A DNA stretch of 19,481 nt from an uncultured Methanomassiliicoccales archaeon. GTDB taxonomy: Archaea > Thermoplasmatota > Thermoplasmata > Methanomassiliicoccales > Methanomethylophilaceae. Location of the stretch: the NCBI GenBank assembly GCA_964504055.1, contig CAZDCU010000010.1, positions 8,568 through 28,048 of the forward strand, written 5' to 3'. How positions within the stretch are numbered: position 1 is the first letter of the stretch; every line of letters begins with the position of its first letter. The notes under the pieces are model-generated. The model did no database searches. It saw only the letters and a list, made by a program, of their open reading frames with translations, and was not told the origin of the DNA. The translations under genes and the position numbers were made by a program. Of the stretch, positions 4,227 to 18,463 are shown piece after piece.

Positions 4227-6203
4227 ATGGATTCCCTGTCTGTAATATGCAATGACAATCCGACACTGGCAGCGGTATCGGTGTTTCTGATGCTGATACT
4301 GCCGTTTGCCGGTATGTTACCGGGATTGACAAAGACAAAGGAATCTGTGTGTAAACTGCAGATGATTCTGTGCGGAATTTCATGCTGTATCGGGATAATG
4401 ACGTTCCCGATACACTGCATCTGTTCCGATATTTCGGTAATGATTCCTCTGAAATCGGCAATAGGTCCGTACGGAATACTCATAGACGGCATATCGGCGC
4501 TGATGATGTCTGTATCGTCCGCTGTGTTCCTTCTTGTGATACTGCATATGGCAGGTTCTTCGCATGTTATGAACGGCAGATATCTTGCATCTATGAATGC
4601 TCTGTACATCGCGTGTATGCTCTGTATGTGTGCGGACACCGTTGCCGTTCTTCTGATCGGTTGGGAATGCGTTTCGCTGCTTACGTTCCTGATGAACGAT
4701 AAACCCGGGGAAGAAGAGCACAGATGGATGTTCTTCGTCATAACGCACATCGGCGGTCTGATGCTTATCGGAACCTATGCATACATGGCATCCGTTACCG
4801 GAACATTCGTACTTTCGGAATGGGCAGGTATATCTTCACTGGTCGGAACGACACTGTCTTCGATTCTTATCCTGCTGTTATTCCTGGGATTCGGTTCGAA
4901 ACTGGGAATCGTTCCGTTCCACGCATGGATGCCCGAAATGTACAGAACGACACCGACCCACACAGTTATTCTGTTATCCACTGTGTGTTCCAATGTTGCG
5001 ATTCTGATTCTTTTCAAGAGTATTTTCGGATACATCGGAATTTCCGATGACATGAACGGAATCGCATTGGTGCTGATGCTTCTGTCTTCCGTATCGGCGC
5101 TGTGGGGTTCGATGGAATCCATGATTCAGAACAAACCGAAGAGGATTCTTGCCTATTCAAGTATGGAGAATATGGCATTGGTCTGTCTGTGTATGTCGGT
5201 CGCAATAGCGTTCGCGCCCGTATCAAAATCCGCAATGCAGCTGATTCTCATTGCGGGACTGTTACACACAGTCAACCACTCGCTGTTCAAATCTCTGATG
5301 CTGATGACTGTCCACACAGTCGAAGACTGTACGGGTGAGACCGACATCAATAATTTCGGAGGATTGGGGAGAACGTTGCCTGTTCTCTCTTTCGCAGCGG
5401 TTATCGGTACCGCATCTCTCGCAGCCGTACCTCCGATGAACGGATTCACAAGTGAACTGTTAATGCTGCAGTCTATGATTTCCGGTGAAACATCGGAATC
5501 GATGCTGATGCTTGTTATGCCTTTGGCAGTCGCAGTATTGGGTGTCTGCGGTATGATGGGTGCAACATCGTACGTGAGACTGTACGGATTCACCTATCTC
5601 GGACGCCCGAGATCGAAAGGTGCGGAATCTCCGAAATCTGTCGGCAGACTTCCGATGTTTTCTATGTGGGTTCTTGCAGTATCATGTATCGTTACGGGAT
5701 TGTTCGCATTGAACATTGCAGATGTTCTCAACACAGGCATGAATTCATTCCTGGGAACATCTGCGGAATACAGAGATGCGATGTCCGGTAACTTCGAACC
5801 TCTGATTCTCGGAATAATGATTCTCGGAGCCATTGCGATACTTGTATTCCTTATGCGTTCGAGAAAAGAAGACGGCATTGAGGCCAACACATGGGCCTGC
5901 GGAGGTACATTGGACGAAGATATGCAGTACTCTTCGGCGGGATTCTCACAGCCGTTGGTGCGTGTGTTCCACCCAATTTACGGCGACACCGTTTCCATGA
6001 CCGATGATGACGGGCACAAAAAAGTGTTCTATCATGTCAGATTCGTGGAGCCGTTCAAGAAATACATTTACACACCGGTCGCGAAAGGTGTAATATTCAT
6101 TTCAAAACAGGTCGAAAGGATACAGACAGGTAACATTCAGTCGTATCTGACATACATGCTGATTGTTATCGTTCTTGCTTTACTGGCGGTGAGGCTCATA
6201 TGA
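4227..6203 (+). CDS. HyfB/HycC-like (NuoL/Mrp-antiporter-type) membrane subunit of a group-4-hydrogenase-related complex
   Basis: 658 aa and polytopic. It has the antiporter-subunit signature GFGSKLGIVPFHAWMPEMYRTTPTHTVILLS and a C-terminal TWACGG motif typical of HycC/HyfB. Its stop overlaps the start of the next gene (ATGA at 6200-6203). Confidence 0.9.
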   Translation: MDSLSVICNDNPTLAAVSVFLMLILPFAGMLPGLTKTKESVCKLQMILCGISCCIGIMTFPIHCICSDISVMIPLKSAIGPYGILIDGISALMMSVSSAVFLLVILHMAGSSHVMNGRYLASMNALYIACMLCMCADTVAVLLIGWECVSLLTFLMNDKPGEEEHRWMFFVITHIGGLMLIGTYAYMASVTGTFVLSEWAGISSLVGTTLSSILILLLFLGFGSKLGIVPFHAWMPEMYRTTPTHTVILLSTVCSNVAILILFKSIFGYIGISDDMNGIALVLMLLSSVSALWGSMESMIQNKPKRILAYSSMENMALVCLCMSVAIAFAPVSKSAMQLILIAGLLHTVNHSLFKSLMLMTVHTVEDCTGETDINNFGGLGRTLPVLSFAAVIGTASLAAVPPMNGFTSELLMLQSMISGETSESMLMLVMPLAVAVLGVCGMMGATSYVRLYGFTYLGRPRSKGAESPKSVGRLPMFSMWVLAVSCIVTGLFALNIADVLNTGMNSFLGTSAEYRDAMSGNFEPLILGIMILGAIAILVFLMRSRKEDGIEANTWACGGTLDEDMQYSSAGFSQPLVRVFHPIYGDTVSMTDDDGHKKVFYHVRFVEPFKKYIYTPVAKGVIFISKQVERIQTGNIQSYLTYMLIVIVLALLAVRLI

Positions 6204-7138
6204 TCGGGCACATCGTTATGATTCTTCAGGCAGTCGTTCTGATTGCGGTTTCTCCGTTGATGACGGGAATCATCCGTAAAGTCAAGGCAGCTTATCAGGG
6301 AAAAGTAGGGCCGGGTATTTTCCAGCCTTATCATGATTTGGCCAAACTGTTCAGGAAAGGAAGACTGACGGGAAAGGATCACACCTGGTTATTCAAAGCT
6401 ATCCCGTATATGTGTCTCGCATCGATGGTTATCCTTTCGCTGATGGTTCCGTTCGTGTATACAGGCATTCTTTCTCCCTTCGGAGATTTAATCACATTGG
6501 TGTACCTCTTTACTTTATTCAGATTCGCCATGGTTTTGGGCGGATTGGAAGGAGGTTCCGTATTCGGAGGAATGGGAAGCAGCAGGGAAATGATGATGTC
6601 CGTATTGATTGAACCCGCACTGCTGCTTTCGATCATGGCTTTATCCGTTTTAACAGGCGGAAGCACCAATATGTCGGATATTTCGCTGAATATTGCCGAA
6701 ATGGGTTTCGATGCGTTGGGTCCCACGCTGATACTTGCGGTTACGTCGTTTATGATGACATTATTGGCTGAGAATGCGAGAGTGCCTTTCGACAATCCCG
6801 CTACTCATCTGGAACTGACAATGGTCCACGAGGCAATGATTCTCGAATATTCGGGAAAGAAACTGGGAATGATGGAACTTTCATCGGAAATAAGACTTAC
6901 GCTTTTCATGGCGATGATTTCGTCTATGTTCCTTCCGTGGGGAATCGCCACGGAAATCACGCCTTCCGCAATTCTGATTGCGACAGCTGTTGCGATTGTG
7001 AAGATGTTAATCATCGCGGTCGTGATTGCAACGGTTGAAAGTGTAACTGCGAAATACAGACTGTTCAAGACACCGAATCTTCTGACAATCTCATTTATTC
7101 TGTCGTTACTTGCGATGGTTTCGGTGTATATTCTCTGA
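6200..7138 (+). CDS. HycD/HyfC-like (NuoH-type) membrane subunit
   Basis: 312 aa. The N-terminus SPLMTGIIRKVKAAYQGKVGPGIFQPYHDLAKLFRKG is characteristic of HycD/HyfC. The PFDNPATHLEL / EYSG motifs are NuoH-like. GGTGAGG lies upstream of the ATG. Confidence 0.9.
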   Translation: MIGHIVMILQAVVLIAVSPLMTGIIRKVKAAYQGKVGPGIFQPYHDLAKLFRKGRLTGKDHTWLFKAIPYMCLASMVILSLMVPFVYTGILSPFGDLITLVYLFTLFRFAMVLGGLEGGSVFGGMGSSREMMMSVLIEPALLLSIMALSVLTGGSTNMSDISLNIAEMGFDALGPTLILAVTSFMMTLLAENARVPFDNPATHLELTMVHEAMILEYSGKKLGMMELSSEIRLTLFMAMISSMFLPWGIATEITPSAILIATAVAIVKMLIIAVVIATVESVTAKYRLFKTPNLLTISFILSLLAMVSVYIL

Positions 7139-7148
7139 GGTGAAAGAT

Positions 7149-7808
7149 ATGGATGTAACTGTTGCAATGAATCTCATAAACATCTGCGCCTCATCGATGC
7201 TTCTGTGTTCCATACTGTCTATGGCAATGCTACGCATGCCGCCGATGGTGAAATTATTCTCACTGCAGTCACTGTTCTTAGGTGCGATGGCTGCCGTTGT
7301 CGCTTATTATTACGATGAACCGCACATCTACATCATGTGCGCACTGACGGTAATCATCAAAGGATTGGTGATACCGAAGGTACTTGACAGTGTTTTGCTG
7401 AAAGTGGAAACCGTCAAAGAAGCCAAACTGAAAATCGGTATCGCAGGTTCGTTATTGGTGTGTGCTGCGTTGATTTTCATATCGTATTACGTCACGGAAC
7501 CGTTCATAATGAAATTCGACACAATGGAGAACAGCTGTTTGGCATTATCGATGTCTATCGTATTGATCGGACTGCTGATGATGGCTTCCAGGCGTAAGGC
7601 GGTAACGGAAGTTATCGGACTGCTGATGATGGAGAACGGTCTGTTCCTCGGTGCACTGTCCATTTCCCACGGAATGCCGCTGATCGTTGAGATTGCGGCG
7701 TTCTTCGATGTTTTGGTTGCATTGGTAATCATCGGCGTATTCATTCTGAGAATCAACAGATCGTTCCATTCCACCGATGTAGCAGATCTCAGGAGGCTGA
7801 AGGAATGA
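7149..7808 (+). CDS. HyfE-like (NuoK-related) membrane subunit
   Basis: About 219 aa from the ATG at 7149, which is preceded by GAGGTGA. The C-terminal half, GLLMMENGLFLGALSISHGMPLIVEIAAFFDVLVALVIIGVFILRI, parallels E. coli HyfE. The ORF-track start at 7110 overlaps the upstream gene and is probably an over-extension. Confidence 0.75.
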   Translation: MDVTVAMNLINICASSMLLCSILSMAMLRMPPMVKLFSLQSLFLGAMAAVVAYYYDEPHIYIMCALTVIIKGLVIPKVLDSVLLKVETVKEAKLKIGIAGSLLVCAALIFISYYVTEPFIMKFDTMENSCLALSMSIVLIGLLMMASRRKAVTEVIGLLMMENGLFLGALSISHGMPLIVEIAAFFDVLVALVIIGVFILRINRSFHSTDVADLRRLKE

Positions 7809-9274
7809 TACAGGAATCTCTGACGGTGATATTTTCAGTATACATTCTGTTGCTGATTTCATGCGTATTCGTAAAGAAAATGAGAGTTCTTTCATATCTT
7901 TCCGTTACCGCATCGGCTGTCTCCGTTGTCTGTGCGGTATTGACCGCCGTCGGTATGTATGACTGTAATTTCATATTCGAAAACGGACCGCTGTATATGG
8001 ACAGAATATCGCTGATATTCCTCTGTCTTGTTTCATTCGTTTCGTTAATGACGATGCTCTATTCCGACGGATACATCTTCTACGAGAAAGAAGAAGGAAT
8101 CGTTTCCGACAGAGATCTGAGACAGTACTACATTACACTCAATCTGTTTGTCGCCGTGATGTATGTCACATTCATTGTGAATTCATTGGCACTTATTTGG
8201 CTGTGTGTCGGTGCAACCACATTGGTTTCCACTTTCCTTGTGGGATTTTACAAGAACGGAAACTCCACGGAAGCCGCATGGAAGTACATGACACTCTGTT
8301 CAGTGGGAATTACCGTGGCATTGCTCGGTATCACATTGCTGTATGCTTCGACACTCAACGTAATAACGGATCTCGATTCCGCTTTGGATTGGACTGTTCT
8401 CATGAAGAATGCCGGGATGTTGGACAGCGATCTGATGAGAATATCGATTGTTCTGATAATCATCGGATACGGTACGAAAGTCGGATTTGCACCGATGCAC
8501 ACATGGCTTCCCGATGCACACAGTCAGGCACCTACGCCCGTGAGCGGTATGCTGTCGGCGGTACTGCTTAACTGTGCGCTGTACGCAGTACTGAGATGTG
8601 TTATGATTTCCGAGATAACAATACCGGATTTTGCGGACACAATACTGCTGATATTCGGATTGTTCTCGTTATTCATTGCGGCGATGTTCATCATAGGTTC
8701 CAAGGATCTGAAGAGAATGCTCGCATACTCGAGTATCGAGAATATGGGATTGATCGCAATAGGATTCGGTATCGGTACCGAACTGAGCATATTCGGTGCG
8801 CTGATTCAGCTGATTGCACACTCCGTAACAAAACCGCTGTTATTCTTTGCCGCGGGAAACATCATTCAGAAGTATGAAACAAGGGATATGAATCTCATCA
8901 GGGGTGTGAGGGAGAAGATGCCTTTCACGGCATTTATGATGGCTGCAGGTTCTCTGATTATTGTGGGTGTTCCTCCGTTTTCGGTATTTGTTGGAGAATT
9001 CTGCATCGTATACGGCGCGGTTTCATCAAATGCCGTGTGGGTTGCGGTTCTCACTCTGTTTTTACTCGTGTTTGTGTTTGCGGGATTTACAAAACACATT
9101 TTCGAAATGCTTTCGGGTCACACCGAACAGGATATCGGAGAGCATAAAGGAATTTTAAGAAAGATTCCGTTCGTTGTGATGTTTGCCGTGACGCTGATTA
9201 TCGGATTGTTTATGCCTGAGTCCTTCTCTGAATTTTTACACGGTGCGGCTTCGGCTGTAGGGGGACTGATTTGA
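7805..9274 (+). CDS. HyfF/HyfD-like (NuoM/NuoN antiporter-type) membrane subunit
   Basis: 489 aa and polytopic. It has the signature GYGTKVGFAPMHTWLPDAHSQAPTPVSGMLSAVLL. The start overlaps the upstream stop (ATGA) and AGGAGG lies upstream. Confidence 0.9.
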   Translation: MIQESLTVIFSVYILLLISCVFVKKMRVLSYLSVTASAVSVVCAVLTAVGMYDCNFIFENGPLYMDRISLIFLCLVSFVSLMTMLYSDGYIFYEKEEGIVSDRDLRQYYITLNLFVAVMYVTFIVNSLALIWLCVGATTLVSTFLVGFYKNGNSTEAAWKYMTLCSVGITVALLGITLLYASTLNVITDLDSALDWTVLMKNAGMLDSDLMRISIVLIIIGYGTKVGFAPMHTWLPDAHSQAPTPVSGMLSAVLLNCALYAVLRCVMISEITIPDFADTILLIFGLFSLFIAAMFIIGSKDLKRMLAYSSIENMGLIAIGFGIGTELSIFGALIQLIAHSVTKPLLFFAAGNIIQKYETRDMNLIRGVREKMPFTAFMMAAGSLIIVGVPPFSVFVGEFCIVYGAVSSNAVWVAVLTLFLLVFVFAGFTKHIFEMLSGHTEQDIGEHKGILRKIPFVVMFAVTLIIGLFMPESFSEFLHGAASAVGGLI

Positions 9275-10716
9275 CGGATATCCGCAGTGATGATTACAGA
9301 AAAACAGTCGCAGAATACATCGGAGAAGGTTACGGCATAATCGACATGTTCGCATCCGAAAGACATCCTGCGGAAAATGAACACGTCAACGTCATTCTGA
9401 GAAAAGACAATGAAATTGTCAGAGTAATCTGCGATGTGAAAGACGGCAGATATGATTCTCTTTCGGAAAACATACCGTCTGCGGAAATCTACGAACGTCT
9501 GATCAGAGAATACAGCGGATTCGATGCCGTAGGTCTCGGAAACGAATGTCCCGTCACATACTGGAGAACCGGCAATCCGCCTCTGAAGAAGGAACGTTCC
9601 GATATCGGAGAAACAAGAATTTCCGTTCCGCACAACAACATCCGCGGTGACGGAATCTTCGAGATACCTGTCGGACCCGTACATGCGGGAGTAATCGAGC
9701 CGGGTCATTTCAGATTCAGTGTTGCCGGAGAATCGGTAATCAAACTGAATGTACACCTCGGTTATACACACAGGGGAATCGAGAAGATGATGGAAGGTCC
9801 TGTTTCCAGAAACAGAATCCATCTTATCGAACGTACATCGGGAGATACCACCGTTGCAAATTCATTGGCATACTGTCATATCATGGAAAACAACGAAAAA
9901 GTTCCGGAACGTGCGCAGTTTATACGTGTGATTGCTTCGGAACTTGAGAGATTGGCTTCGCATGTGTCAGCCATAGGGGGAGTATGTACCGATACGGCGT
10001 TTTCCGTCCCTGCGGCATTGGGTTCACGTCTTCATGAAGACGTGCTTCGTATCAATCTCAGAGTTTTCAAAGACAGATTCATGCGTAACGTCATCGTTCC
10101 GGGTGGAGTAAGGAAGGATATCGATAAAGAAAACCGCAGGTTCCTGACCGAGTCTCTGCTGAAACTGAAATTGGATATTATGGAATTGTCCGATATGATG
10201 ATGAATTCCTCTACACTCCTCGACCGTCTCGAGACTACAGGTGTACTCAAAAAAGAAGTGGCGGAAATCCACAGGGCGGTAGGTCCGATTGCAAGAGCAA
10301 GCGGAGTGACATCCGATGTAAGGAAAGAATGTCCTTACGATGCATATGATAAGCTGGGATTCACGATTCATACGGAAACTTCCGGAGATGTACTTGCAAG
10401 AACCGAAGTGAGAATAAGAGAAGCGTATGAATCGATCGATCTCATAATGCAGTCTCTCGCTCTCATCGAAGACGGTCCGCTGAGGATAGATGTGAAACCG
10501 AACGACGGATTTGCGGTATCTGTTGTAGAATCGGCGAGAGGAGAACTTGTACACTCTGCGGAGATACGTGACGGTGAAATCTGGAGATACAGCATACGTG
10601 ATCCGTCTCTCGTGGATTGGCCGATGATGTCCTATGCAGTACCGGGAAACGTCGTTCCCGATTTCCCGTTGATCAACAAGAGTTTCAGTCTTTCGTACAG
10701 CGGAAACGATCTGTGA
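9271..10716 (+). CDS. HycE/HyfG-like fused NuoC-NuoD-type 'large subunit' homolog lacking all four NiFe-ligand cysteines
   Basis: 481 aa with a TTG start overlapping the upstream stop. The N-terminal part has a NuoC-like motif (IPSAEIYERLIREYSGFDAVG). The remainder is HycE-like (GPVHAGVIEPGHFRFSV, GYTHRGIEK). At the expected N-terminal RxCGxCxxxH position it reads ERTSGDTTVANS. At the expected C-terminal DPCxxCxxR position it reads SFSLSYSGNDL, and the protein ends there. Confidence 0.9.
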   Translation: MTDIRSDDYRKTVAEYIGEGYGIIDMFASERHPAENEHVNVILRKDNEIVRVICDVKDGRYDSLSENIPSAEIYERLIREYSGFDAVGLGNECPVTYWRTGNPPLKKERSDIGETRISVPHNNIRGDGIFEIPVGPVHAGVIEPGHFRFSVAGESVIKLNVHLGYTHRGIEKMMEGPVSRNRIHLIERTSGDTTVANSLAYCHIMENNEKVPERAQFIRVIASELERLASHVSAIGGVCTDTAFSVPAALGSRLHEDVLRINLRVFKDRFMRNVIVPGGVRKDIDKENRRFLTESLLKLKLDIMELSDMMMNSSTLLDRLETTGVLKKEVAEIHRAVGPIARASGVTSDVRKECPYDAYDKLGFTIHTETSGDVLARTEVRIREAYESIDLIMQSLALIEDGPLRIDVKPNDGFAVSVVESARGELVHSAEIRDGEIWRYSIRDPSLVDWPMMSYAVPGNVVPDFPLINKSFSLSYSGNDL

Positions 10717-10725
10717 GGTGTATGT

Positions 10726-11472
10726 ATGCTGAGTTTCAATCTTAAAAATGCATTTTCCAAGAAGGTTGCGGAATCGATTCCCGTTCTGAACGAAAATTCT
10801 CTGATGATGCCTTTTCCCGACGGATGTACTCACTGCGGTGCCTGTATTGACAACTGTCCGTCGAAAGCTATCGATATCGTCAACAATAAATGGACAATAG
10901 ACCTCGGAAGATGCGTATTCTGTCTGGAATGTACCGAAATCTGTCCCGAACACGCTCTTACGAAGATTCCCGCACCCGATTATACACTTTCACGTGAAGA
11001 AATGATTTATTCGGAATCGAAACAACCCGATTATCATTATGAAAAATTGCCGGAAGAGTTCGTAAAATCATTCGGAAAATCAATTTCGATAAGAGAAATC
11101 GATGCAGGTTCCTGTAATGCATGTGAAACCGAGATCAACTGCTGTTCCAACCCGTATTACGATATGGGACGTTTCGGACTGAAGATTGTGGCATCGCCGA
11201 GACACGCGGATGTTTTCATCGTAACAGGCCCTATGACCGAGAATATGGCTGAGGCCGCAAAACGTACCTACGATGCGGCACCGTTTCCGAAGATGGTGAT
11301 TGCAACAGGTACATGTGCAATATCCAACGGAATCTTCGCAGACGGTGACGTAAGAGAAGGCGGTACCGAGAGTGTTCTTCATCCCGATATGTACATAATC
11401 GGATGTCCTCCGTCACCGAACAGGATTATACGTTCGATTCTGAAGGCATTCGGATTTATTGAACAACAATGA
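10726..11472 (+). CDS. Fusion of a HycF/NuoI-like 2x[4Fe-4S] ferredoxin domain and a HycG/NuoB-like small subunit
   Basis: 248 aa. The N-terminal part has CTHCGACIDNCP and CVFCLECTEICP, two CxxCxxCxxxCP motifs. The C-terminal part has DAGSCNACETEI, ATGTCA and IIGCPPSP, the NuoB/HycG-type cluster ligands. GAGGTG lies upstream of the ATG. Confidence 0.88.
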   Translation: MLSFNLKNAFSKKVAESIPVLNENSLMMPFPDGCTHCGACIDNCPSKAIDIVNNKWTIDLGRCVFCLECTEICPEHALTKIPAPDYTLSREEMIYSESKQPDYHYEKLPEEFVKSFGKSISIREIDAGSCNACETEINCCSNPYYDMGRFGLKIVASPRHADVFIVTGPMTENMAEAAKRTYDAAPFPKMVIATGTCAISNGIFADGDVREGGTESVLHPDMYIIGCPPSPNRIIRSILKAFGFIEQQ

Positions 11473-11839
11473 CGATACACTGTGCGTTGCTTACAACGTA
11501 GTTGGAAACGCTTCCGAGAACCACTCTGTCAAGGCCTGTCTTATTGGCAGCTCTTCCCACGATGATTGCACTGCAGTTAAGTCTCTGCGCACATTCCAAA
11601 AGCACTGTCGAAGGATGACCGGATTCCACCTGTGTTACAACATCTACACCCTGTTCGGATGCTGTTTTCTTAATCTGTGCAAACTTTTCTTCAATAGCAT
11701 CCATTTCCGAAAGATGTTCTTTGGACGGGAACACGGAGACAATATGAAGGCGTTCGTTGAACGATTTCGCATATTTCAGAGCATAATCCAACGCTTTCTG
11801 AGTGTGCTCTCTGCCGTCATATGCCATCAGTACAGTCAT
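11456..11839 (-). CDS. Universal stress protein (UspA family)
   Basis: MTVLMAYDG...IVGRAANKTGLDRVVLGSVSNYVVSNAQCIVIVV shows a typical USP fold with a G-x-G...GS ATP-binding-type motif. I prefer the ATG at 11839 (or 11851) because a TATA-like element sits about 27 nt upstream. The ORF-track start at 11926 adds an atypical N-terminal extension. The 3-prime end overlaps the convergent hyf-like gene by 17 nt. Confidence 0.85.
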   Translation of the reverse strand: MTVLMAYDGREHTQKALDYALKYAKSFNERLHIVSVFPSKEHLSEMDAIEEKFAQIKKTASEQGVDVVTQVESGHPSTVLLECAQRLNCSAIIVGRAANKTGLDRVVLGSVSNYVVSNAQCIVIVVQ

Positions 11840-11861
11840 TGTTCCGCCCATGTCGGTTGTA

Positions 11862-11873
11862 CTATAAAAATAA
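11862..11873. promoter_or_regulatory. TATA-like element in the divergent USP / RyR-gene control region
   Basis: The element reads TTATTTTTATAG on the minus strand and CTATAAAAATAA on the plus strand. It is centred about 27 nt upstream of the USP ATG at 11839, consistent with a leaderless transcript. Because it is quasi-symmetric, it could also serve the plus-strand gene. A second TATA-like ATATATAG lies at 11929-11936 on the plus strand. Confidence 0.35.
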
Positions 11874-11910
11874 GGGTAACTCTTCAGAGCATCTTCGATT
11901 TGCGGCGGAT

Positions 11911-12519
11911 GTGCAGGGTTACACACTCATATATAGTCAGGATTTCATTCTCTTCCCGATACGGGCGGTTGATTCGCAGAATTCCGAATGTCTGTATCGG
12001 ACTGTCGGTGATACGTTGGTTTGTGAATATGTGTCTGATAATTTTTCCGAATATCCGAAAGAAGAGGATATCGAAAAGACAGCACAGGTTATTCACAGTT
12101 ATTACAACAGAAACCGTCTGACTGAGTTTCCGGACAAACCTCTTGAATATCCGACCTGGGAGGATTTACCCCAGGATCTGAAACATTCCAACATAATGCA
12201 GGCGAAAGACATTCCCAGGAAACTTACTCTGATCGACTGTCATATCGAAAAAGACGACGGTTCCGGACTGAAATCGTTCACTTCCGAAGAAGAGATACTT
12301 TTAGGAAAGATTGAGCATGAAAGATGGGTCGGAGAGAGAATTTCGGAAGGTTGGAAATACGGTTCCGAAAAAAATGTTGAGAAACGTATTTCTCCGTACA
12401 TCGCCGAATGGGATAAAATTCCCGAATCGATCAGGCTGTACGATATCGAAGCAGTCAGAAACATAATTCCGCTTCTGAAATTATCGGGTTTGATGGTGGT
12501 GCGCAATGACAGGAAATAA
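11911..12519 (+). CDS. Protein with two tandem RyR (ryanodine-receptor-type) domain repeats
   Basis: The C-terminal repeat EHERWVGERISEGWKYGSEKNVEKRISPYIAEWDKIPESIRLYDIEAVRNIIPLLKLSGLMVV fits the prokaryotic RyR-domain pattern (HERW..GW.YG...P....W..IPE....D...VR.IP.LL...G). The preceding segment AQVIHSYYN...YPTWEDLPQDLKHSNIMQAKDIPRKLTLIDCHI is a more divergent copy. The stop at 12519 is firm, but the start is uncertain. ATG 11821 would overlap the divergent USP 5-prime end. Alternatives are GTG 11911, TTG 12016 (GGTGA 4 nt upstream) and GTG 12031. Confidence 0.7.
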   Translation: MQGYTLIYSQDFILFPIRAVDSQNSECLYRTVGDTLVCEYVSDNFSEYPKEEDIEKTAQVIHSYYNRNRLTEFPDKPLEYPTWEDLPQDLKHSNIMQAKDIPRKLTLIDCHIEKDDGSGLKSFTSEEEILLGKIEHERWVGERISEGWKYGSEKNVEKRISPYIAEWDKIPESIRLYDIEAVRNIIPLLKLSGLMVVRNDRK

Positions 12520-14461
12520 AACAGACAGTTCGTTGGATGCACCGTTATTTATCTCGGTGACAGGACACGCAGACATACCTTCAAAGGATTTTCAGTTCAT
12601 CGAATCGGAATTGGATAAACTTTTTACGATGTTACGGACGAAATATCCCGACACCAGACTCGTATTGATTTCAGGAATGTGTCAGGGTGCGGATATCATC
12701 GTTTCCGAGTTTGCTCTGAAGAAAGGACTGCATGTTGCGCCTGTTCTTCCCATGTCTTTGGAGAAATACAGGAAAACATTCTCATCGGAAGATTATCTTC
12801 ACAGAATGGAAGTTATCCTTGAAAATGAGAACACATACAGTCCGTTTGTCATAGAAACCGATTCCGATGACGAAAGAGACAGTTACACAAATCTTTCTGC
12901 ATTCTTAATTTTCAATTCAAGTGTTATGATTTCCCTTTGGGACGGAAGGAGTTACGAACGTAACGGCGGTACTTTCGATACAATGAGGATGGCTTACGAG
13001 GGCGTTGACACATCTGTCATGCAGAATTATTCGAGAACCGTTTCCGGTACCGCATCGGACATACCGTTCCGCCTGAAATATCTTGATTCTGCGGAAGACT
13101 GTCTGATTTACAGAATTCCCGTATCCCGTGAATCTTCCGATGAAGAATTGATCGGAAAAGGATGTAAAAATCCCAATGAAATCAAACAGGGCTGCGGTTT
13201 CATTGTCCCCATAGTGGTTCAGTCCGACGGTGCGGAACCCGATATCATGTCTCCGAAAGTTATTCCTTCGGATACAATTCCCCCGATCTATGATTCCGCA
13301 TTCGCAAGGATGGATGAATTCAACAGAGATGTAAAGAATCATCTCAACAGTCATTCCGGCGTTTCCTGTATCGATGCGGATTCAGATTCGGATTACGAAT
13401 GTGATTCCTGTTTCTATCTTCTTTCCGCAAAAAGCGACAGTGTTAAGAAAACAATAGAAAAAGTCAAAAAATCACCGACGATGAATCTTACGGCCGAACG
13501 TTATCACATAGCGGATGTTTTGGCACTGAGAGATCAGTCTTCTACTTTCAGAATGATCCGTGCGATTATTCTCGTAACTGCACTTTCCGGATTCTTCTTC
13601 AGTCTGTTCATACTGATGAACGGTTCCGTTCTGATCAACGTAATATACACAGTACTGATGATAGGCGGTACCGCTCTGATATATCTGCATAACAGAAAGG
13701 GAGATTATCTCAGATTCATCGAATACAGAGCGTTGGCGGAATCCATGAGAGTAGAATACTACCGTACGCTGATGGGCGTCCGCCGTCTGATTCCGAATTC
13801 ATGTTACGGATACATGAAAAACGAACTGCTTTGGACGAATACCGTTCTCAAATCATGGAACACACCGTTCATGAACGATTACGGTTCGCTTCCCGTACTG
13901 AGTGATGATGAAATCATTTCATTGGTAAACGAATGCTGGGTCGACGACCAGATGAATTACCATGAAAAAACCAAAAACAGGAACCGTGCCAAACTGACAA
14001 AGAACAAAAACGAGGCAAAAATTCTGTCTGTTACAACTACAGTAATTTCGGGATTATTGGCCGCATCGACAATGTTCTTCGAAGAATTCATGGACGGTTC
14101 GGTTGCTTCCGTCGGAGGATTGGTACTTTTCGGAGTACGTATGGTGCCCGTTCTGAATGTGGATATCACATTCATAGTCAGGGCTCTGCTTGTGGTACTT
14201 GTTGCGTTATCCACGTATGTTATGACTTCCGCCATTCTTATCCACGGAGGAACTCCCGAACAGATCGAATCGAAAAGACAGATGTTTGTTATTGCAAAAC
14301 TCCGTATGATGAAATCCGATTCAAAGATTCAGAGAGAAATTCTGCTTGAATTGGGCGATCAGTGCATAGCGGAGATGAACGATTGGGTTTACGAACACAG
14401 AATGAAGGATTACAAATCGGGCGTAGCCAAAACGAGTCTTATGGATGTGGATTCGAAATAA
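12506..14461 (+). CDS. SLOG-like (SMF/DprA-LOG superfamily) N-terminal domain fused to two 2TM (SLATT-like) membrane modules; predicted ligand-gated membrane effector
   Basis: 651 aa. The N-terminal roughly 165-210 aa show a Rossmannoid strand/Gly-loop pattern like LOG/YpsA/ThsA-SLOG: LFISVTGHADIP, RLVLISGMCQGADIIVSEFA, VMISLWDGRSYERNGGTFDT. The C-terminal half has two similar modules. Each is a polar helix starting xYH (ERYHIADVLALRDQ..., MNYHEKTKNRNRAKL...) followed by a pair of TM helices (aa about 350-395 and about 505-579). The ATG lies inside the end of the RyR gene, a 14-nt overlap. Confidence 0.72.
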   Translation: MTGNKTDSSLDAPLFISVTGHADIPSKDFQFIESELDKLFTMLRTKYPDTRLVLISGMCQGADIIVSEFALKKGLHVAPVLPMSLEKYRKTFSSEDYLHRMEVILENENTYSPFVIETDSDDERDSYTNLSAFLIFNSSVMISLWDGRSYERNGGTFDTMRMAYEGVDTSVMQNYSRTVSGTASDIPFRLKYLDSAEDCLIYRIPVSRESSDEELIGKGCKNPNEIKQGCGFIVPIVVQSDGAEPDIMSPKVIPSDTIPPIYDSAFARMDEFNRDVKNHLNSHSGVSCIDADSDSDYECDSCFYLLSAKSDSVKKTIEKVKKSPTMNLTAERYHIADVLALRDQSSTFRMIRAIILVTALSGFFFSLFILMNGSVLINVIYTVLMIGGTALIYLHNRKGDYLRFIEYRALAESMRVEYYRTLMGVRRLIPNSCYGYMKNELLWTNTVLKSWNTPFMNDYGSLPVLSDDEIISLVNECWVDDQMNYHEKTKNRNRAKLTKNKNEAKILSVTTTVISGLLAASTMFFEEFMDGSVASVGGLVLFGVRMVPVLNVDITFIVRALLVVLVALSTYVMTSAILIHGGTPEQIESKRQMFVIAKLRMMKSDSKIQREILLELGDQCIAEMNDWVYEHRMKDYKSGVAKTSLMDVDSK

Positions 14462-14479
14462 CCGGAGTGTGTGGGAAAT

Positions 14480-15199
14480 ATGATGATTGTCGGAGAAGAA
14501 GACGCTGCAAAGAGGCATCAGACCCGTATAAAGAAGATAAAGGCGCATATCAGACTGAATGCTACGCCGAATAACGTTATGAGTATCTGCAGCAAAGCCG
14601 GTCTTCCGTTCCCCAAAGGTGTTTCCTTTGAAAAATTCCCCGAATGGCTCGATGAAAATCTCAGAGATCTTCCGGATTCTTCTTTGGTACAGATTATGAG
14701 AAAATTGGGTCTGACTGTCGTTTCCGACCCTGCGGATTTCAACGGAGTTTTCATCATTCACTGCAGTGCGGATAAAAAACTTGCAGATGCGGTGACAAAA
14801 TCACTCAATGAGATAGGAATAGACGATTCTATGATTTACTATTCATCCGGAGAAGAGACGGGAACGAGACTCGGAACATCATTTGTGGATATCATATTCA
14901 AATGCATCAGAGATGCAAAACTGATTTTATGCATACTCAGTAACAATTCGATCAACAGTCAGTACTGTATGCAGGAAGCAGGCGCTTCCATGATTCTGAA
15001 CAAACCGATAATTCCGATTTTATCAGGGATTGAACCGACAGAGATGCCCGGTTTCATGGATAATACACGTTACATCGCAGCGGACATGTCAACAGCTGAG
15101 AATGCGAAAGCATTTCTCAAGGAAGTCTGCCGTATTATGGAAATAGATGCATCTTCGGCATCCGTTTCGTTGGGTGTTCAGAAAGTTCTCAGCAGGTGA
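14480..15199 (+). CDS. TIR-domain protein with an uncharacterised N-terminal region of about 90 aa
   Basis: The C-terminal part fits a bacterial-type TIR (TIR_2-like) pattern: GVFIIHCSADKKLADAVTKSLNEIGI..., GTSFVDIIFKCIRDAKLILCILSNNSINSQYCMQEAGASMILNKPIIPIL. This includes the xCxxE glutamate position (E at 14975-14977). The start is either ATG 14480 or the upstream in-frame GTG 14471, 9-18 nt after the stop of the previous gene. Confidence 0.82.
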   Translation: MMIVGEEDAAKRHQTRIKKIKAHIRLNATPNNVMSICSKAGLPFPKGVSFEKFPEWLDENLRDLPDSSLVQIMRKLGLTVVSDPADFNGVFIIHCSADKKLADAVTKSLNEIGIDDSMIYYSSGEETGTRLGTSFVDIIFKCIRDAKLILCILSNNSINSQYCMQEAGASMILNKPIIPILSGIEPTEMPGFMDNTRYIAADMSTAENAKAFLKEVCRIMEIDASSASVSLGVQKVLSR

Positions 15200-15203
15200 A
15201 AAC

Positions 15204-16169
15204 ATGGGTCAGAATGTCGATAAGCTGGTTGAAGAGATTAAGAATTCACAGGTCCGCGGAGCTACAACCATCGCCATCCGTGTGACGGAGGCACTGGTTT
15301 CCGATGCAGAAGCCTACATGAATTCCGATGATAGAGATGACGACCTGAAATATCATACTCAGGAATGGGGTTTCCAGCTGATTGAGTCCCGTCCGTCACA
15401 GATTACTTTGAGAAATTCCGTCAAAAGCATTCTCAGAGGTATTGAGAAGATCGATGACGATAACGATGAGAAAACATTCGAGGTTCTGAAGAGCAATGCC
15501 GATGCATTCGTTAAAGTTGCAGAGAAAGCTTCTGAAAAAATCGCATTCCTCGGAGCGAATATCATCTGCGACGGAGACACGGTTCTGACAAACAGCCACA
15601 GTGCGTTGGTTGTGGGGATTCTCAATGAAGCAGTCAACAAAATGGGAAAGGATGTACGTGTTATAGTCACCGAAACACGTCCGAAATACCAGGGAATCAA
15701 AATGGTGAACGAACTCGTAAATCTCGGAATAAAGACCACACTGATTGTAGACGGGGCCGTAAACCATGTGATGCCCGAAGTGGATTTGGTCATTGTCGGT
15801 GCGGATACAGTAAGCTCCGACGGTTCCGTTATTTCGAAAATCGGTGTTTCTCAGATTGCTCTTTCCGCTCATGAATGGAAAGTTCCGTTTTATGTTGCGG
15901 CACCTACCTTCAAATTTTCCGAAGAGACGCTTTCAGGCGTTATGATCGCTCTCGAAGAGGGAAAAGCCGAGGATGTCGTCAAAAGAAGCACAGTCGGAGA
16001 TTACGGTCTTCTGGAGAATCATTCGGATGACGGACTGTTCGAGATAAGAAATCCCTCATTCGATGCGACAAGGGCGGAATTCGTACGCGGCGTGATCACC
16101 GAACTGTACATTATGTCTCCGTATTCGATCGGAGAATTTCTCGCACGCCGTTCCGGATTCATTGACTGA
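15204..16169 (+). CDS. eIF-2B alpha/beta/delta family protein (aIF-2BII / ribose-1,5-bisphosphate isomerase-like)
   Basis: MGQNVDKLVEEIKNSQVRGATTIA..., VRVIVTETRPKYQGIKM..., VIVGADTVSSDGSVISKIGVSQIALSAHEWKVPFYVAAPTFKFS are family hallmarks. The ATG at 15204 is preceded by AGGTGA and lies 4 nt after the TIR gene stop. The ORF-track start at 15147 lies inside the TIR gene and is probably an over-extension. Confidence 0.88.
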   Translation: MGQNVDKLVEEIKNSQVRGATTIAIRVTEALVSDAEAYMNSDDRDDDLKYHTQEWGFQLIESRPSQITLRNSVKSILRGIEKIDDDNDEKTFEVLKSNADAFVKVAEKASEKIAFLGANIICDGDTVLTNSHSALVVGILNEAVNKMGKDVRVIVTETRPKYQGIKMVNELVNLGIKTTLIVDGAVNHVMPEVDLVIVGADTVSSDGSVISKIGVSQIALSAHEWKVPFYVAAPTFKFSEETLSGVMIALEEGKAEDVVKRSTVGDYGLLENHSDDGLFEIRNPSFDATRAEFVRGVITELYIMSPYSIGEFLARRSGFID

Positions 16170-16818
16170 GTTCGGAATCGATAATCGGTATGAGATCGGC
16201 AAGATTATTCAGAATCCATGTGCCGTTCTGTTTCATCATACTGTCTGCAGGCGTAAGGTCGGGTACGACGGCCACTCTGCACCCCGCTGCGTGAGCCGAT
16301 AGCACTCCGTTGGGGGAATCTTCGACTGCGATGCAGTCGCAGGGAGCTTCGCCGATTTTATCGGATGCGTAGAGATACACATCCGGCGCAGGCTTACCGT
16401 TTTCAACCATATGCGCTGAAATCAACGAATTCAGTTTTGTATCGAGGCCGATTATTCTCATGTAATTCATCGCACGGTCGTACTGTGTCGATGTTACCAC
16501 AGCGATTTTTATTCCCTTATCTGTGAGATAATCAATCAGTTCGTACGCACCGGTTTTGACGGGCATTCCGTTTTCTTCTACGTAGTTGCGCATCATTTCT
16601 CTGCGGCGGTCGCGTATTTTGAAGAAATCGAAGGATTCTCCGTACTTACTGCGGTAAACTCTGCTGCATGTTTCGGGATCGTTGCTTCTGAGCGAAAGAA
16701 TGTCTGCAGGATCCACTTCGAAACCGAATTCCCTGCATGTTTCAATCATAAAATCGAGGTTGAGTCTCTCTGAATCTATCAGTGTCCCGTCCATGTCGAA
16801 GAGAACCGCTTTAATCAT
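16159..16818 (-). CDS. HAD-superfamily hydrolase, subfamily IA (beta-phosphoglucomutase/phosphatase-like), paralog 1
   Basis: 219 aa with the HAD motif I LFDMDGTLIDSE, then VVTS, GKPAPDVY and VEDSPNGV. The start overlaps the upstream kinase stop (ATGA at 16815-16818). The 3-prime end overlaps the convergent eIF-2B-family gene by 11 nt. Confidence 0.9.
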   Translation of the reverse strand: MIKAVLFDMDGTLIDSERLNLDFMIETCREFGFEVDPADILSLRSNDPETCSRVYRSKYGESFDFFKIRDRRREMMRNYVEENGMPVKTGAYELIDYLTDKGIKIAVVTSTQYDRAMNYMRIIGLDTKLNSLISAHMVENGKPAPDVYLYASDKIGEAPCDCIAVEDSPNGVLSAHAAGCRVAVVPDLTPADSMMKQNGTWILNNLADLIPIIDSELSQ

Positions 16819-17803: not shown

Positions 17804-18463
17804 TCACTGATTTATTTCCGATTCGATTATCGGTATGAGTTCGGAAAGATCGTTCAGAATCCATTTTCCGTTCTTTTTCATCATTTCATCTGCAGGTGTG
17901 AGATCGGGAACAACGGCTACGTTGCACCCTGCGGAATATGCGGACTGCACTCCGTTCGGTGAGTCTTCTACGGCGATACAGTTGACAGGAATTTCACCGA
18001 CTTTTTCAGAAGCGTAAAGATACACATCCGGCGCAGGCTTACCGTTTTTCACCATTGCTGCGGAAATAACATAATCGAATCTTCCGTCGAGACCGATTAT
18101 TTTCATATAATCCACGGCACGCTCGTACCGATTGGATGTGACAACGGCAGTCTTGATATCGGTATCTTCAAGAAAATCCATCAGTTCGTACACTCCGGGT
18201 TTTGCCTGCAGCCCTTCGGTTTCGACATAATTCCGCATTTTCTCTCTGCGGCTGTCGCGTATTCTGAAAAAATCGAAGTCTTCGCCGTACTTACTGCGGT
18301 AGAATTTACTGCAGCCTTCGGGAGATACGCTTCTCATTGAAAGAACATCCTCACGGTCGACATCGAAACCGAATTCTCTGCATGTTTCGATTGTAAAATC
18401 AAGATTCGGTCTTTCGGAATCGACGAGTGTTCCGTCCATGTCGAAGAGGATTGCTCTGATCAT
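17804..18463 (-). CDS. HAD-superfamily hydrolase, subfamily IA, paralog 2
   Basis: 219 aa, collinear with paralog 1 with no gaps and roughly two-thirds identical by eye (LFDMDGTLVDSE, GKPAPDVYLYAS, AVEDSPNGV, VAVVPDLTPAD). Confidence 0.9.
   Translation of the reverse strand: MIRAILFDMDGTLVDSERPNLDFTIETCREFGFDVDREDVLSMRSVSPEGCSKFYRSKYGEDFDFFRIRDSRREKMRNYVETEGLQAKPGVYELMDFLEDTDIKTAVVTSNRYERAVDYMKIIGLDGRFDYVISAAMVKNGKPAPDVYLYASEKVGEIPVNCIAVEDSPNGVQSAYSAGCNVAVVPDLTPADEMMKKNGKWILNDLSELIPIIESEINQ

What the first reader, a model, noticed from the sequence alone, without database searches (positions are those of the whole stretch)
9271..10716. Hydrogenase 'large subunit' homolog with all four NiFe-ligating cysteines substituted
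- Group 4 [NiFe]-hydrogenase large subunits (HycE, HyfG, EchE, MbhL, CooH) bind the NiFe centre through an N-terminal RxCGxCxxxH motif and a C-terminal DPCxxCxx(R/H) motif.
- This protein is clearly HycE/HyfG-like (GPVHAGVIEPGHFRFSV, GYTHRGIEKMMEG).
- At the N-terminal site it reads E-R-T-S-G-D-T-T-V-A-N-S (nt 9829-9864), so Cys is replaced by Ser, Cys by Thr, and His by Asn.
- At the C-terminal site it reads S-F-S-L-S-Y-S-G-N-D-L (nt 10681-10713), so Cys is replaced by Ser and Cys by Gly.
- The protein ends immediately afterwards, with no C-terminal extension for endopeptidase maturation.
- It therefore cannot bind a canonical NiFe site and should not be annotated as a hydrogenase.
- This matches the Ehr (energy-converting hydrogenase-related) class, intermediates between group 4 hydrogenases and complex I whose substrates are unknown.
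Basis: partly seen in the sequence, partly recalled or inferred. Interest (0 to 1): 0.7.

Follow-up and report, generated by a model that had tools for sequence, protein, structure and literature searches.

The report
Cysteine-less hydrogenase relative (Ehr complex)
This gene encodes the "large subunit" of an Ehr complex, a known and widespread membrane complex related to hydrogenases that has lost its nickel-iron site; here it sits in a gut-type methanogen, it cannot be an ordinary hydrogenase, and its true substrate is still unknown.

Summary
The 481-aa ORF at 9271-10716 is a HycE/HyfG-type NuoC+NuoD fusion. All four [NiFe]-ligating cysteines are replaced (Ser190, Thr193, Ser475, Gly478), the L1 histidine is Asn197, and the protein stops (TGA) where HycE is cleaved.

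This is neither an error nor decay. All 197 distinct relatives examined lack a full cysteine set and share the motifs E-R-x-S-G-D and N-K-S-F-x-L-S-Y-S-G-N-D-L-stop. They come from Methanomassiliicoccales, Methanocella, Methanoperedens, Nitrospira, Bacillota, Omnitrophota, Elusimicrobia and CPR. The former metal site is the best-conserved part of the protein.

The gene sits in a six-gene operon (HyfB-, HyfC/NuoH-, HyfE-, HyfF-like, large subunit, HyfH+HyfI/NuoB fusion). The order is the same in every locus that held the whole cluster. All 12 Fe-S cysteines, most antiporter Lys/Glu residues and the proton-relay residues leading to the pocket are kept. The quinone-binding Tyr/His of complex I is absent.

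This matches the published Ehr family, whose function was still stated as unknown in 2025 and which has already been reported once in Methanomassiliicoccales. It is a new member of a known kind, of modest interest. The most likely mechanism is a ferredoxin-fed, ion-translocating redox complex with a non-H2, non-quinone acceptor; this is inferred, not shown.

The parts
4227..6203 (+). HyfB/NuoL-like antiporter-like membrane subunit (658 aa)
   Evidence: Pfam Proton_antipo_M 2e-35. The best NCBIfam hit is hydrogenase 4 subunit B, 3.3e-105 but below its cut-off. It keeps the TM5 Glu147, TM7 Lys225 and TM12 Glu410 equivalents of NuoL/M/N.
6200..7138 (+). NuoH/HyfC/HycD-like membrane anchor subunit (312 aa); its start overlaps the stop of the previous gene
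   Evidence: Pfam NADHdh 1.5e-41. The alignment with HyfC, HycD and NuoH keeps the PFD...E.EL...EYSG loop motif.
7110..7808 (+). HyfE-like small membrane subunit with a NuoK-like C-terminal half. The public gene call starts at about 7149 (219 aa).
   Evidence: NCBIfam hydrogenase 4 membrane subunit 2.3e-25; Pfam Oxidored_q2.
7805..9274 (+). HyfF-like antiporter-like subunit (489 aa)
   Evidence: NCBIfam hydrogenase 4 subunit F 8e-135; 39% identity to E. coli HyfF. Lys225 and Glu398 are kept, but the TM5 Glu is Gly136.
9271..10716 (+). Ehr large subunit (EhrL-type; NuoC-like N-domain fused to a NuoD/HycE-like domain), 481 aa. TTG start overlaps the HyfF-like stop; TGA stop.
9829..9864 (+). Remnant of the L1 motif RxCGxCxxxH, here E-R-T-S-G-D-T-T-V-A-N-S. 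Cys1 is Ser190, Cys2 is Thr193 and His is Asn197. Gly191 and Asp192 are invariant in the family.
10675..10713 (+). Remnant of the L2 motif DPCxxCxxR, here N-K-S-F-S-L-S-Y-S-G-N-D-L. The canopy Asp is Ser473, Cys3 is Ser475 and Cys4 is Gly478. This is the most conserved segment of the family (mean column conservation 0.93 vs 0.57 overall).
10726..11472 (+). Small subunit (248 aa): an N-terminal HyfH/HycF/NuoI-like 2x[4Fe-4S] domain fused to a HyfI/HycG/NuoB-like domain
   Evidence: Pfam Fer4 families plus Oxidored_q6 3e-26. All 8 Cys of the two ferredoxin motifs and all 4 Cys of the proximal cluster are present (SCNAC, GTC, GCPP).
11456..11851 (-). Universal stress protein gene, convergent with the operon. 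It is a conserved neighbour in archaeal Ehr loci; a functional link is unproven.
   Evidence: Pfam Usp 2.6e-23. A convergent Usp lies within 1 kb in 39 of 52 archaeal loci with enough flank and in 0 of 20 bacterial loci.

Best explanation
The ORF is the large subunit of an Ehr complex. Ehr is a six-subunit membrane complex descended from group 4 (Hyf/Hyc-type) [NiFe]-hydrogenases whose nickel-iron site has been replaced by a different, strongly conserved pocket. It is not a hydrogenase.

Proposed working, with shown and inferred steps marked:
1. Electron entry (inferred). A low-potential donor, most likely reduced ferredoxin made by MvhADG-HdrABC in this methyl-reducing methanogen, reduces the two [4Fe-4S] clusters of the HyfH-like domain.
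2. Electron path. Electrons pass to the proximal [4Fe-4S] cluster of the NuoB-like domain. All 12 ligating cysteines are shown to be present; the transfer itself is inferred.
3. Chemistry at the pocket. An acceptor that is neither H+/H2 nor a complex-I-type quinone is reduced and protonated at or next to the remodelled pocket. The proton-relay residues are shown to be kept: Glu143, His231, Arg342, Glu384 and Arg423, equivalent to HycE Glu193, His284, Arg395, Glu437 and Arg478. The acceptor is unknown.
4. Energy coupling. The energy is passed through the NuoH-like and HyfE-like subunits to two antiporter-like subunits that move H+ or Na+ across the membrane. The key Lys/Glu residues are shown to be mostly kept; ion translocation is inferred.
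5. Role in the cell (inferred). In Methanomethylophilaceae it would be a second ferredoxin-reoxidising coupling site beside the Fpo-like complex.
For: Identity
- Best sequence and fold match is HycE, with Hyf-type membrane subunits.
- Gene order is B-C-E-F-G-(H)I, which is the E. coli hyf order without hyfA, hyfD and hyfJ.

Loss of the NiFe site
- Shown: Not decay
- Across 197 distinct relatives, Gly191, Asp192, Asn469, Lys470, Ser471, Leu474, Gly478 and Asp480 are invariant, and Ser475 is present in 196 of 197.
- The C-terminal 19 residues average 0.93 conservation against 0.57 for the whole protein.

Same family as published Ehr
- Identical motifs and operon occur in Nitrospira, CPR, Peptococcaceae, Methanoperedens and Methanocella. 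This matches the descriptions in PMC10284858, PMC12342949, PMC7304191, PMC3569383, PMC6349859 and PMC6147122.

Electron wire intact
-.

Proton relay kept
-, using the residue roles described for FHL in PMC9474812.

Antiporter residues
-.

No quinone ligands
- The NuoCD Tyr aligns with the invariant Gly191, and the NuoCD His aligns with the invariant Ile142.
Against: - No biochemical datum exists for any Ehr complex, and the literature still calls the function unknown (PMC12342949, 2025).
- No conserved redox-partner gene lies beside the operon across the 80 loci. An hdrD-like gene is adjacent only in six Methanomassiliicoccaceae loci, not in this window.
- The HyfH-like di-cluster module has lost its cluster-binding part in Nitrospira, Elusimicrobia and one Methanocellaceae locus, so ferredoxin entry through it cannot be universal.
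- The canopy Asp that is strictly conserved in hydrogenases and complex I is variable here.
- The TM5 Glu of the HyfF-like subunit is Gly in this lineage, so the pumping stoichiometry or mechanism may differ.
- The rest of the genome could not be inspected.
Confidence: 0.72

Rival explanations
1. It is a redox-sensing or redox-regulated Mrp-type cation/proton antiporter. The Fe-S clusters serve as a sensor or structural relic, and no substrate is reduced at the old NiFe pocket.
For: - No conserved partner or acceptor gene lies nearby.
- The di-cluster input module is dispensable in several lineages.
- The family occurs in organisms with very different metabolisms (aerobic Nitrospira, CPR, methanogens).
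- A universal stress protein gene is the only conserved neighbour in archaea.
Against: - All 12 Fe-S cysteines are kept here.
- The pocket and its proton-relay residues are the most conserved part of the protein, which is more than a sensor would seem to need.
- The complex lacks the small MrpE/F/G-like subunits.
Confidence: 0.1
2. It is a complex I / Fpo-like reductase of a membrane-soluble carrier (a quinone or similar lipid-soluble cofactor).
For: - NCBIfam NuoD and FpoD models hit the protein (6.6e-62 and 3.7e-50, both below their cut-offs).
- The NuoH-like subunit is present.
- Methanomassiliicoccales were reported to carry genes for a liposoluble electron carrier (PMC4153887).
Against: - The quinone-ligating Tyr and His columns hold the invariant Gly191 and Ile142.
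- The small subunit has the hydrogenase-type CxxC, not the complex I CC motif.
- The same invariant pocket occurs in Patescibacteria/CPR genomes, and no complete quinone-biosynthesis pathway was found in Ehr-carrying Riflemargulisbacteria (PMC6349859).
- The protein groups with HycE/HyfG/EchE, not NuoCD.
Confidence: 0.07
3. It is an Mbx/MBS-like sulfane-sulfur (polysulfide) reductase in which the proximal Fe-S cluster itself reduces the substrate.
For: - MBS is a precedent for a group-4 relative that no longer makes H2 (cited in PMC9474812).
- The MbsL structure 6u8y_L is a significant hit, E=3.2e-23.
Against: - The protein is much closer to HycE (195 bits) than to MbsL (86 bits).
- The operon has 6 Hyf-type genes and no extra Mrp-type small subunits.
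- No sulfur-metabolism genes lie nearby.
Confidence: 0.05
4. It is still a working hydrogenase with unconventional ligands, or the cysteine loss is an assembly or sequencing artefact or a decaying pseudogene.
For: - The overall fold and many second-sphere residues are kept.
- A D. ruminis Ehr-type large subunit with all four Cys has been reported (PMC3569383), so the clade is close to real hydrogenases.
Against: - Ser, Thr and Gly cannot ligate the Ni-Fe(CO)(CN)2 centre.
- The same substitutions occur in 197 distinct sequences from independent assemblies, with an intact reading frame and operon.
- There is no C-terminal maturation peptide.
- Ehr expression in Nitrospira did not respond to H2 (PMC12342949).
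Confidence: 0.03

Closest known systems
Ehr (energy-converting / Ech hydrogenase-related) complexes. First noted in Geobacter sulfurreducens (GSU0739-0745); also described in Nitrospira, CPR bacteria, Margulisbacteria, Desulfotomaculum ruminis (Desru_3260-3265) and the Methanomassiliicoccales MAG 'MALP'.
   Same: - Group-4-like large subunit without the NiFe cysteines.
- A six-gene cluster with a NuoB-like small subunit, a NuoH-like subunit, a HyfE-like subunit and two antiporter-like subunits.
- The same signature motifs in the taxa where Ehr was published (PMC7894505, PMC10284858, PMC12342949, PMC7304191, PMC3569383, PMC6147122).
   Different: - Nothing essential differs.
- This copy belongs to the host-associated Methanomethylophilaceae branch.
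- Its HyfH-like and NuoB-like modules are fused. That fusion is also seen in Bacillota and Omnitrophota but not in Nitrospira or Methanoperedens.
- It carries Gly instead of the TM5 Glu in the HyfF-like subunit.
- A direct comparison with the Geobacter prototype sequence was not possible.
E. coli hydrogenase 4 / formate hydrogenlyase-2 (HyfABCDEFGHI) and hydrogenase 3 (HycBCDEFG), group 4a [NiFe]-hydrogenases
   Same: - Best sequence and structure match (HycE E=1.9e-56, TM 0.85).
- Same order of shared genes (B, C, E, F, G, H, I).
- NuoC-NuoD fusion in the large subunit.
- CxxC-type proximal cluster.
- The Glu193, His284, Arg395, Glu437 and Arg478 equivalents are kept.
   Different: - All four NiFe cysteines are lost, as are the canopy Asp529 and Arg537 equivalents.
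- There is no 32-residue maturation peptide.
- There are no hyfA, hyfD, hyfJ, formate dehydrogenase or protease genes in the cluster.
- Identity is about 30%.
Respiratory complex I NuoCD / Fpo FpoD
   Same: The fold is the same, the NiFe site has been lost, and the peripheral module is coupled to a NuoH-like subunit and antiporter-like subunits.
   Different: - The quinone-ligating Tyr and His are absent.
- The canopy Asp is absent.
- The small subunit lacks the tandem-Cys motif.
- Identity to E. coli NuoCD is only 21.5%.
- There is no NuoA or NuoJ, and no NADH or F420 input module.
Pyrococcus furiosus MBS/Mbx (membrane-bound sulfane sulfur reductase)
   Same: It is a group-4 hydrogenase descendant that no longer evolves H2 and is thought to be an ion-translocating ferredoxin oxidase.
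   Different: Similarity is weaker (86 bits vs 195 for HycE). The subunit set and gene order differ, with no Mrp-type small subunits here.

Membership tests
Ehr (hydrogenase-related) complex | The large subunit is homologous to group 4 [NiFe]-hydrogenase large subunits / NuoD | tested here: met
   Pfam Complex1_49kDa 1e-39. HycE 7z0s_E gives E=1.9e-56. Foldseek TM is 0.85 to HycE.
Ehr (hydrogenase-related) complex | The cysteines that ligate the NiFe centre are absent | tested here: met
   Ser190, Thr193, Ser475 and Gly478 lie in the HycE Cys241/244/531/534 columns.
Ehr (hydrogenase-related) complex | Encoded in a cluster with a NuoB-like small subunit, a NuoH-like subunit and Mrp/NuoL-like antiporter subunits | tested here: met
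   The six-gene operon spans 4227-11472. The order B-C-E-F-G-(H)I is the same in every locus that held the whole cluster, except three CPR loci where the small-subunit gene lies upstream or was not found.
Ehr (hydrogenase-related) complex | Groups with sequences from taxa whose clusters were published as Ehr, apart from true group 4 hydrogenases and NuoD | tested here: met
   An NJ tree puts the window inside a clade with Nitrospira, CPR, Peptococcaceae and Methanoperedens sequences, separate from HycE, HyfG, EchE-like and NuoCD. The signature motifs are shared. This was distance-based only, with few outgroups.
Ehr (hydrogenase-related) complex | Direct similarity to the prototype G. sulfurreducens EhrL (GSU0743) | not tested
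   The prototype sequence could not be retrieved with the remaining capped searches.
Group 4 [NiFe]-hydrogenase | N-terminal RxCGxCxxxH motif | tested here: not met
   The sequence reads ERTSGDTTVAN.
Group 4 [NiFe]-hydrogenase | C-terminal DPCxxCxx(R/H) motif | tested here: not met
   The sequence reads SLSYSGNDL followed by a stop.
Group 4 [NiFe]-hydrogenase | Pfam NiFeSe_Hases score above the gathering threshold | tested here: not met
   23.1 bits against a cut-off of 25.8. The neighbouring true Ech-type subunit in L027 scores 43.1.
Group 4 [NiFe]-hydrogenase | H2 evolution or uptake; nickel content | not testable with these tools
   This needs biochemistry.
Complex I NuoD / FpoD | Quinone head-group ligands (Tyr in the R-x-D/E-Y motif, His in the beta1-beta2 loop) | tested here: not met
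   The Tyr column holds the invariant Gly191, and the His column holds the invariant Ile142.
Complex I NuoD / FpoD | Tandem-cysteine (CC) ligation of cluster N2 in NuoB | tested here: not met
   The small subunit reads SCNACE, as in HycG and HyfI; NuoB reads LSCCYVE.
MBS/Mbx sulfane sulfur reductase | Mbx/Mbs-type subunit set with additional Mrp-type small membrane subunits; closest similarity to MbsL | tested here: not met
   There are only six Hyf-type genes. MbsL 6u8y_L scores 86 bits against 195 bits for HycE.

The most novel reading that the evidence does not exclude
The remodelled pocket (S-G-D ... N-K-S-F-x-L-S-Y-S-G-N-D, with the hydrogenase proton relay retained but the canopy Asp lost) is a true catalytic site for a still-unidentified, widely available substrate. 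In gut Methanomethylophilaceae the Ehr complex would then be a second ferredoxin-driven ion pump. It might pass electrons on to an HdrD-type heterodisulfide reductase, as suggested by hdrD lying next to ehr in Methanomassiliicoccaceae. That would change the energy budget assumed for these methyl-reducing methanogens.
Probability: 0.2. Interest if true: 0.7.

Novelty: new member of a known kind. Interest (0 to 1): 0.33.

Why it matters
**Annotation.** Public records name these genes 'hydrogenase large subunit', 'Ni,Fe-hydrogenase III large subunit' or 'NADH-quinone oxidoreductase subunit C'. Both kinds of name mislead metabolic reconstructions of gut and rumen methanogens, for example when H2 production or consumption routes are counted.

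**Biology.** Ehr complexes are widespread: at least 591 matching stretches were found in a collection of one genome per species. They are strongly conserved, and their function has been unknown since they were first noticed in Geobacter (Coppi 2005, as cited in PMC6147122).

**What this work adds.** The former metal site is the most conserved part of the protein, the proton relay to it is intact, and the quinone ligands are missing. This narrows the hypotheses to proton-coupled chemistry on a non-H2, non-quinone substrate. It also gives concrete residues to mutate: Asp192, Lys470 and Ser475.

**Why this lineage.** Methanomethylophilaceae lack Ech according to the literature. If so, Ehr may be their only membrane complex of this type besides Fpo-like.

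Tried and rejected
- **Sequencing error or pseudogene.** Rejected. There are 197 distinct relatives with the same substitutions and intact operons.
- **Pyrrolysine (TAG) read-through giving a hidden C-terminal extension.** Rejected. The stop is TGA, and the next gene starts 10 nt later behind a GAGGTG.
- **Quinone site.** Rejected on the Tyr and His columns.
- **Search for a conserved redox partner.** I clustered 592 flanking ORFs from 80 loci. Only a Usp gene recurs widely. An ABC-type ATPase, regulators and an hdrD-like gene recur only in narrow clades. No formate dehydrogenase or NuoEF-like genes were found near the archaeal clusters.
- **PADLOC scan of the downstream RyR / SLOG-DUF4231 / TIR genes.** Only the TIR protein hits (SpbK/ThsB). 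I found nothing linking these genes to Ehr.
- **Literature.** Marreiros 2013 and Lang 2015 are not held. [quoted passage not shown] My searches found no paper describing Ehr specifically in Methanomethylophilaceae.
- **Pocket geometry.** This could not be measured because the model's coordinates are not exposed. In addition, residues 122-158 and 476-481 are low-confidence in the isolated subunit.
- **hyp/hycI genes.** The rest of the genome could not be scanned because the contig is 15.7-19.5 kb. The window itself contains none.


Full report
**1. What is in the window**

- The + strand between 4227 and 11472 carries six tightly packed genes. Three junctions overlap by 4 nt (ATGA or TTGA).
- In order they are:
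  - a HyfB/NuoL-like antiporter subunit;
  - a NuoH/HyfC-like subunit;
  - a HyfE-like subunit;
  - a HyfF-like antiporter subunit;
  - the ORF in question (9271-10716, 481 aa);
  - a 248-aa protein that fuses a 2x[4Fe-4S] ferredoxin-like domain (HyfH/HycF/NuoI-like) to a NuoB/HycG-like domain.
- This is the E. coli hyf gene order without hyfA, hyfD and hyfJ.
- The flanks hold TrkA, histidinol dehydrogenase and a LOG-family protein upstream. Downstream are a convergent Usp, RyR-, SLOG/DUF4231- and TIR-domain proteins, an eIF-2B-family protein and HAD hydrolases.
- The same contig exists in ENA assembly ERZ27279219.
- The closest relatives are MAGs of Methanomethylophilaceae / Methanomassiliicoccales.

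**2.

- Three independent alignments put the four NiFe cysteines of HycE (241, 244, 531, 534) over Ser190, Thr193, Ser475 and Gly478, and the L1 histidine over Asn197. They are phmmer against HycE from the FHL structure, MAFFT with E. coli HycE/HyfG/NuoCD plus an Ech-type subunit, and Foldseek of an AlphaFold2 model.
- The protein ends at the residue where HycE and HyfG go on for another 32 residues. The stop is TGA, so amber/pyrrolysine read-through is not an issue in this Pyl-using order.
- Pfam's NiFeSe_Hases model scores 23.1, below its threshold of 25.8.
- The missing extension is not diagnostic on its own, because the genuine Ech-type subunit in locus L027 also lacks it.

**3. It is a conserved family, not damage**

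- The 120 best database relatives (44-100% identity) all read ER(I/V)SGD...A(N/H) and NKSFxLSYSGNDL-stop.
- A scan of one genome per species found at least 591 related stretches. Of the best 80, every one with a complete C-terminus carries the C-terminal motif and ends at the same position, and the N-terminal motif was read in 76 of the 80. They include Methanocella, Methanoperedens, Nitrospira, Bacillota/Peptococcaceae, Omnitrophota, Elusimicrobia and CPR bacteria at 40-45% identity.
- Across 197 distinct sequences:
  - Gly191, Asp192, Asn469, Lys470, Ser471, Leu474, Gly478 and Asp480 are invariant;
  - Ser475 is present in 196 of 197;
  - the first ex-Cys column is Ser in 187 of 197 (Cys in 4);
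  - the second ex-Cys column varies (T/N/S/E/A).
- The last 19 residues average 0.93 column conservation against 0.57 for the whole protein. The former metal site is therefore the most constrained part of the molecule.
- The operon order B-C-E-F-G-(H)I is the same in every locus that held the whole cluster, except three CPR loci where the small-subunit gene lies upstream or was not found.
- A neighbour-joining tree puts all these sequences in one clade separate from HycE, HyfG, the Ech-type subunit and NuoCD. The window is nested among Methanomethylophilaceae. This is a crude distance tree with few outgroups.

**4. What is kept and what is lost around the pocket**

I used the residue roles laid out for the E. 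coli FHL structure (PMC9474812).

- Kept:
  - the beta1-beta2 loop His (His138);
  - the proton-exchanging Glu (Glu143; 187 of 197);
  - the canopy Arg (Arg423; 196 of 197);
  - the conserved proton path His231 / Arg342 / Glu384.
- Lost:
  - the four cysteines;
  - the canopy Asp (HycE Asp529), described there as strictly conserved across hydrogenases and complex I; in this family it is G/N/S/D, and Ser473 in the window;
  - the terminal Arg.
- Gained: the invariant residues Asp192, Asn469 and Lys470.
- The quinone-ligating Tyr and His of complex I correspond to the invariant Gly191 and Ile142.
- The small subunit keeps all four cysteines of the proximal cluster in the hydrogenase-type CxxC arrangement, plus all eight cysteines of the di-cluster domain.
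- The HyfB-like subunit keeps the TM5 Glu, TM7 Lys and TM12 Glu. The HyfF-like subunit keeps the Lys and the TM12 Glu but has Gly in place of the TM5 Glu. It shares this with a subclade of 20 of 72 loci.

**5. Mechanism**

- *Shown:* the anatomy is that of a redox-driven ion-translocating machine. It has an intact electron wire, an intact proton supply to the pocket and a largely intact membrane arm, but no NiFe centre and no quinone site.
- *Inferred:*
  - reduced ferredoxin feeds the di-cluster domain, as in Ech, Mbh and FHL-type enzymes;
  - electrons reach the proximal cluster;
  - an unidentified acceptor is reduced and protonated at or beside the remodelled pocket;
  - the free energy drives H+ or Na+ export.
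- In a methyl-reducing, H2-dependent Methanomethylophilaceae cell this would reoxidise the ferredoxin produced by MvhADG-HdrABC, alongside the Fpo-like complex. That metabolic frame comes from PMC4153887 and PMC6147122.
- Candidate acceptors cannot be ranked with confidence. The only genomic hint is an hdrD-like gene (Fer4 + 2xCCG) divergently upstream of ehr in six Methanomassiliicoccaceae loci. It is absent from this window.
- The di-cluster module is fused in this lineage, Bacillota and Omnitrophota. It is a separate gene in Methanoperedens and Methanomassiliicoccaceae. It has lost its cluster-binding part in Nitrospira, Elusimicrobia and one Methanocellaceae locus. The universal core is therefore the proximal cluster plus the pocket plus the membrane arm.

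**6. Comparison with what is known**

- The literature defines Ehr complexes as group-4-hydrogenase-related membrane complexes that lack the NiFe-binding cysteines. They were first seen in Geobacter (PMC7894505, PMC6147122, PMC3569383).
- They are considered unable to metabolise H2 and are filtered out by HydDB (PMC5037454).
- They are described in Nitrospira ('function remains unknown', PMC12342949; PMC10284858), CPR (PMC7304191), Margulisbacteria and relatives (PMC6349859), and one Methanomassiliicoccales MAG (PMC6147122).
- Every defining feature I could test is met; see the membership table. Only a direct comparison with the Geobacter prototype sequence was not possible.
- The defining features of group 4 hydrogenases, complex I NuoD and MBS/Mbx were tested and not met.

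**7. Verdict**

- This is a new member, in the Methanomethylophilaceae branch, of a known and already-named family. A specialist would not be surprised by it.
- Residual interest comes from three points:
  - the unsolved function of Ehr;
  - the strong constraint on the remodelled pocket documented here;
  - the misleading 'hydrogenase' or 'NADH-quinone oxidoreductase' names these genes carry in public records.

Noticed in passing
window 11456-11851 (-), and loci L002-L046 etc.: A universal stress protein gene lies convergent to, and immediately after, the Ehr small-subunit gene. The arrangement is found within 1 kb in 39 of 52 archaeal Ehr loci (Methanomassiliicoccales, Methanocella and a few Methanosarcinales/Methanoperedens loci) and in 0 of 20 bacterial loci. 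It may be co-inherited or functionally linked.
   Followed up: partly
window 11821-15199 (+): Three consecutive genes encode a RyR-domain protein, a SLOG(YAcAr)+DUF4231 membrane protein and a TIR-domain protein (PADLOC SpbK 1.7e-14, ThsB-like). They look like a defence or NAD-signalling island in an archaeon.
   Followed up: partly
window 7805-9274 (+), residue 136 (nt 8210-8212): The HyfF-like antiporter subunit has Gly where NuoL/M/N and HyfB/D/F have the TM5 Glu that is regarded as essential for proton pumping in complex I (my own knowledge). The column is Gly in 19 and Ala in 1 of 72 Ehr loci (a Methanomethylophilaceae subclade) and Glu in the other 52.
   Followed up: partly
window 10687-10689 (Ser473) and family-wide: The canopy Asp (HycE Asp529), described as strictly conserved across [NiFe] hydrogenases and complex I, is variable (G/N/S/D) in the Ehr family. 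A new invariant Asp (Asp192) sits between the two former N-terminal cysteines.
   Followed up: partly
L027 1839-3949 and 13717-18776; also L029, L032, L033, L037: In Methanomassiliicoccaceae the Ehr operon is flanked upstream by divergent hdrD-like (Fer4 + 2xCCG) and rubrerythrin genes. Downstream lies a genuine Ech-type hydrogenase cluster whose large subunit has all four cysteines.
   Followed up: partly
L047, L076, L050, L073, L035 versus L051, L057, L027, L029: The HyfH-like di-cluster module is fused, separate, or reduced to its N-terminal amphipathic segment with no cluster cysteines, depending on lineage. Two Methanomassiliicoccales loci (L040, L065) keep only one of the two CxxCxxCxxxC motifs.
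   Followed up: partly
L007, L009, L011, L018, L019, L020, L023: Contigs carrying this archaeal operon are deposited in genome bins named Lachnospiraceae, Dialister hominis, Bacteroidaceae, Bifidobacteriaceae, Bacteroides ovatus and Prevotella hominis. They are 50-53% identical to the window protein and have the same synteny. This is probably mis-binning of Methanomassiliicoccales contigs.
   Followed up: no
window 16159-16818 (-) and 17804-18463 (-): Two HAD-family hydrolase paralogues, 71% identical over all 219 residues, flank an AAA_33/KTI12-like kinase gene. This looks like a local duplication.
   Followed up: partly
family-wide: P0032, P0101, P0105, P0109: Four of 197 family members have Cys at the first ex-ligand position (E-R-x-C-G-D). 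Three have Cys in place of Tyr476, and three others have Cys in place of Ser477. A D. ruminis Ehr-type protein with all four Cys is reported in PMC3569383. The boundary between Ehr and true hydrogenases may therefore be porous.
   Followed up: no
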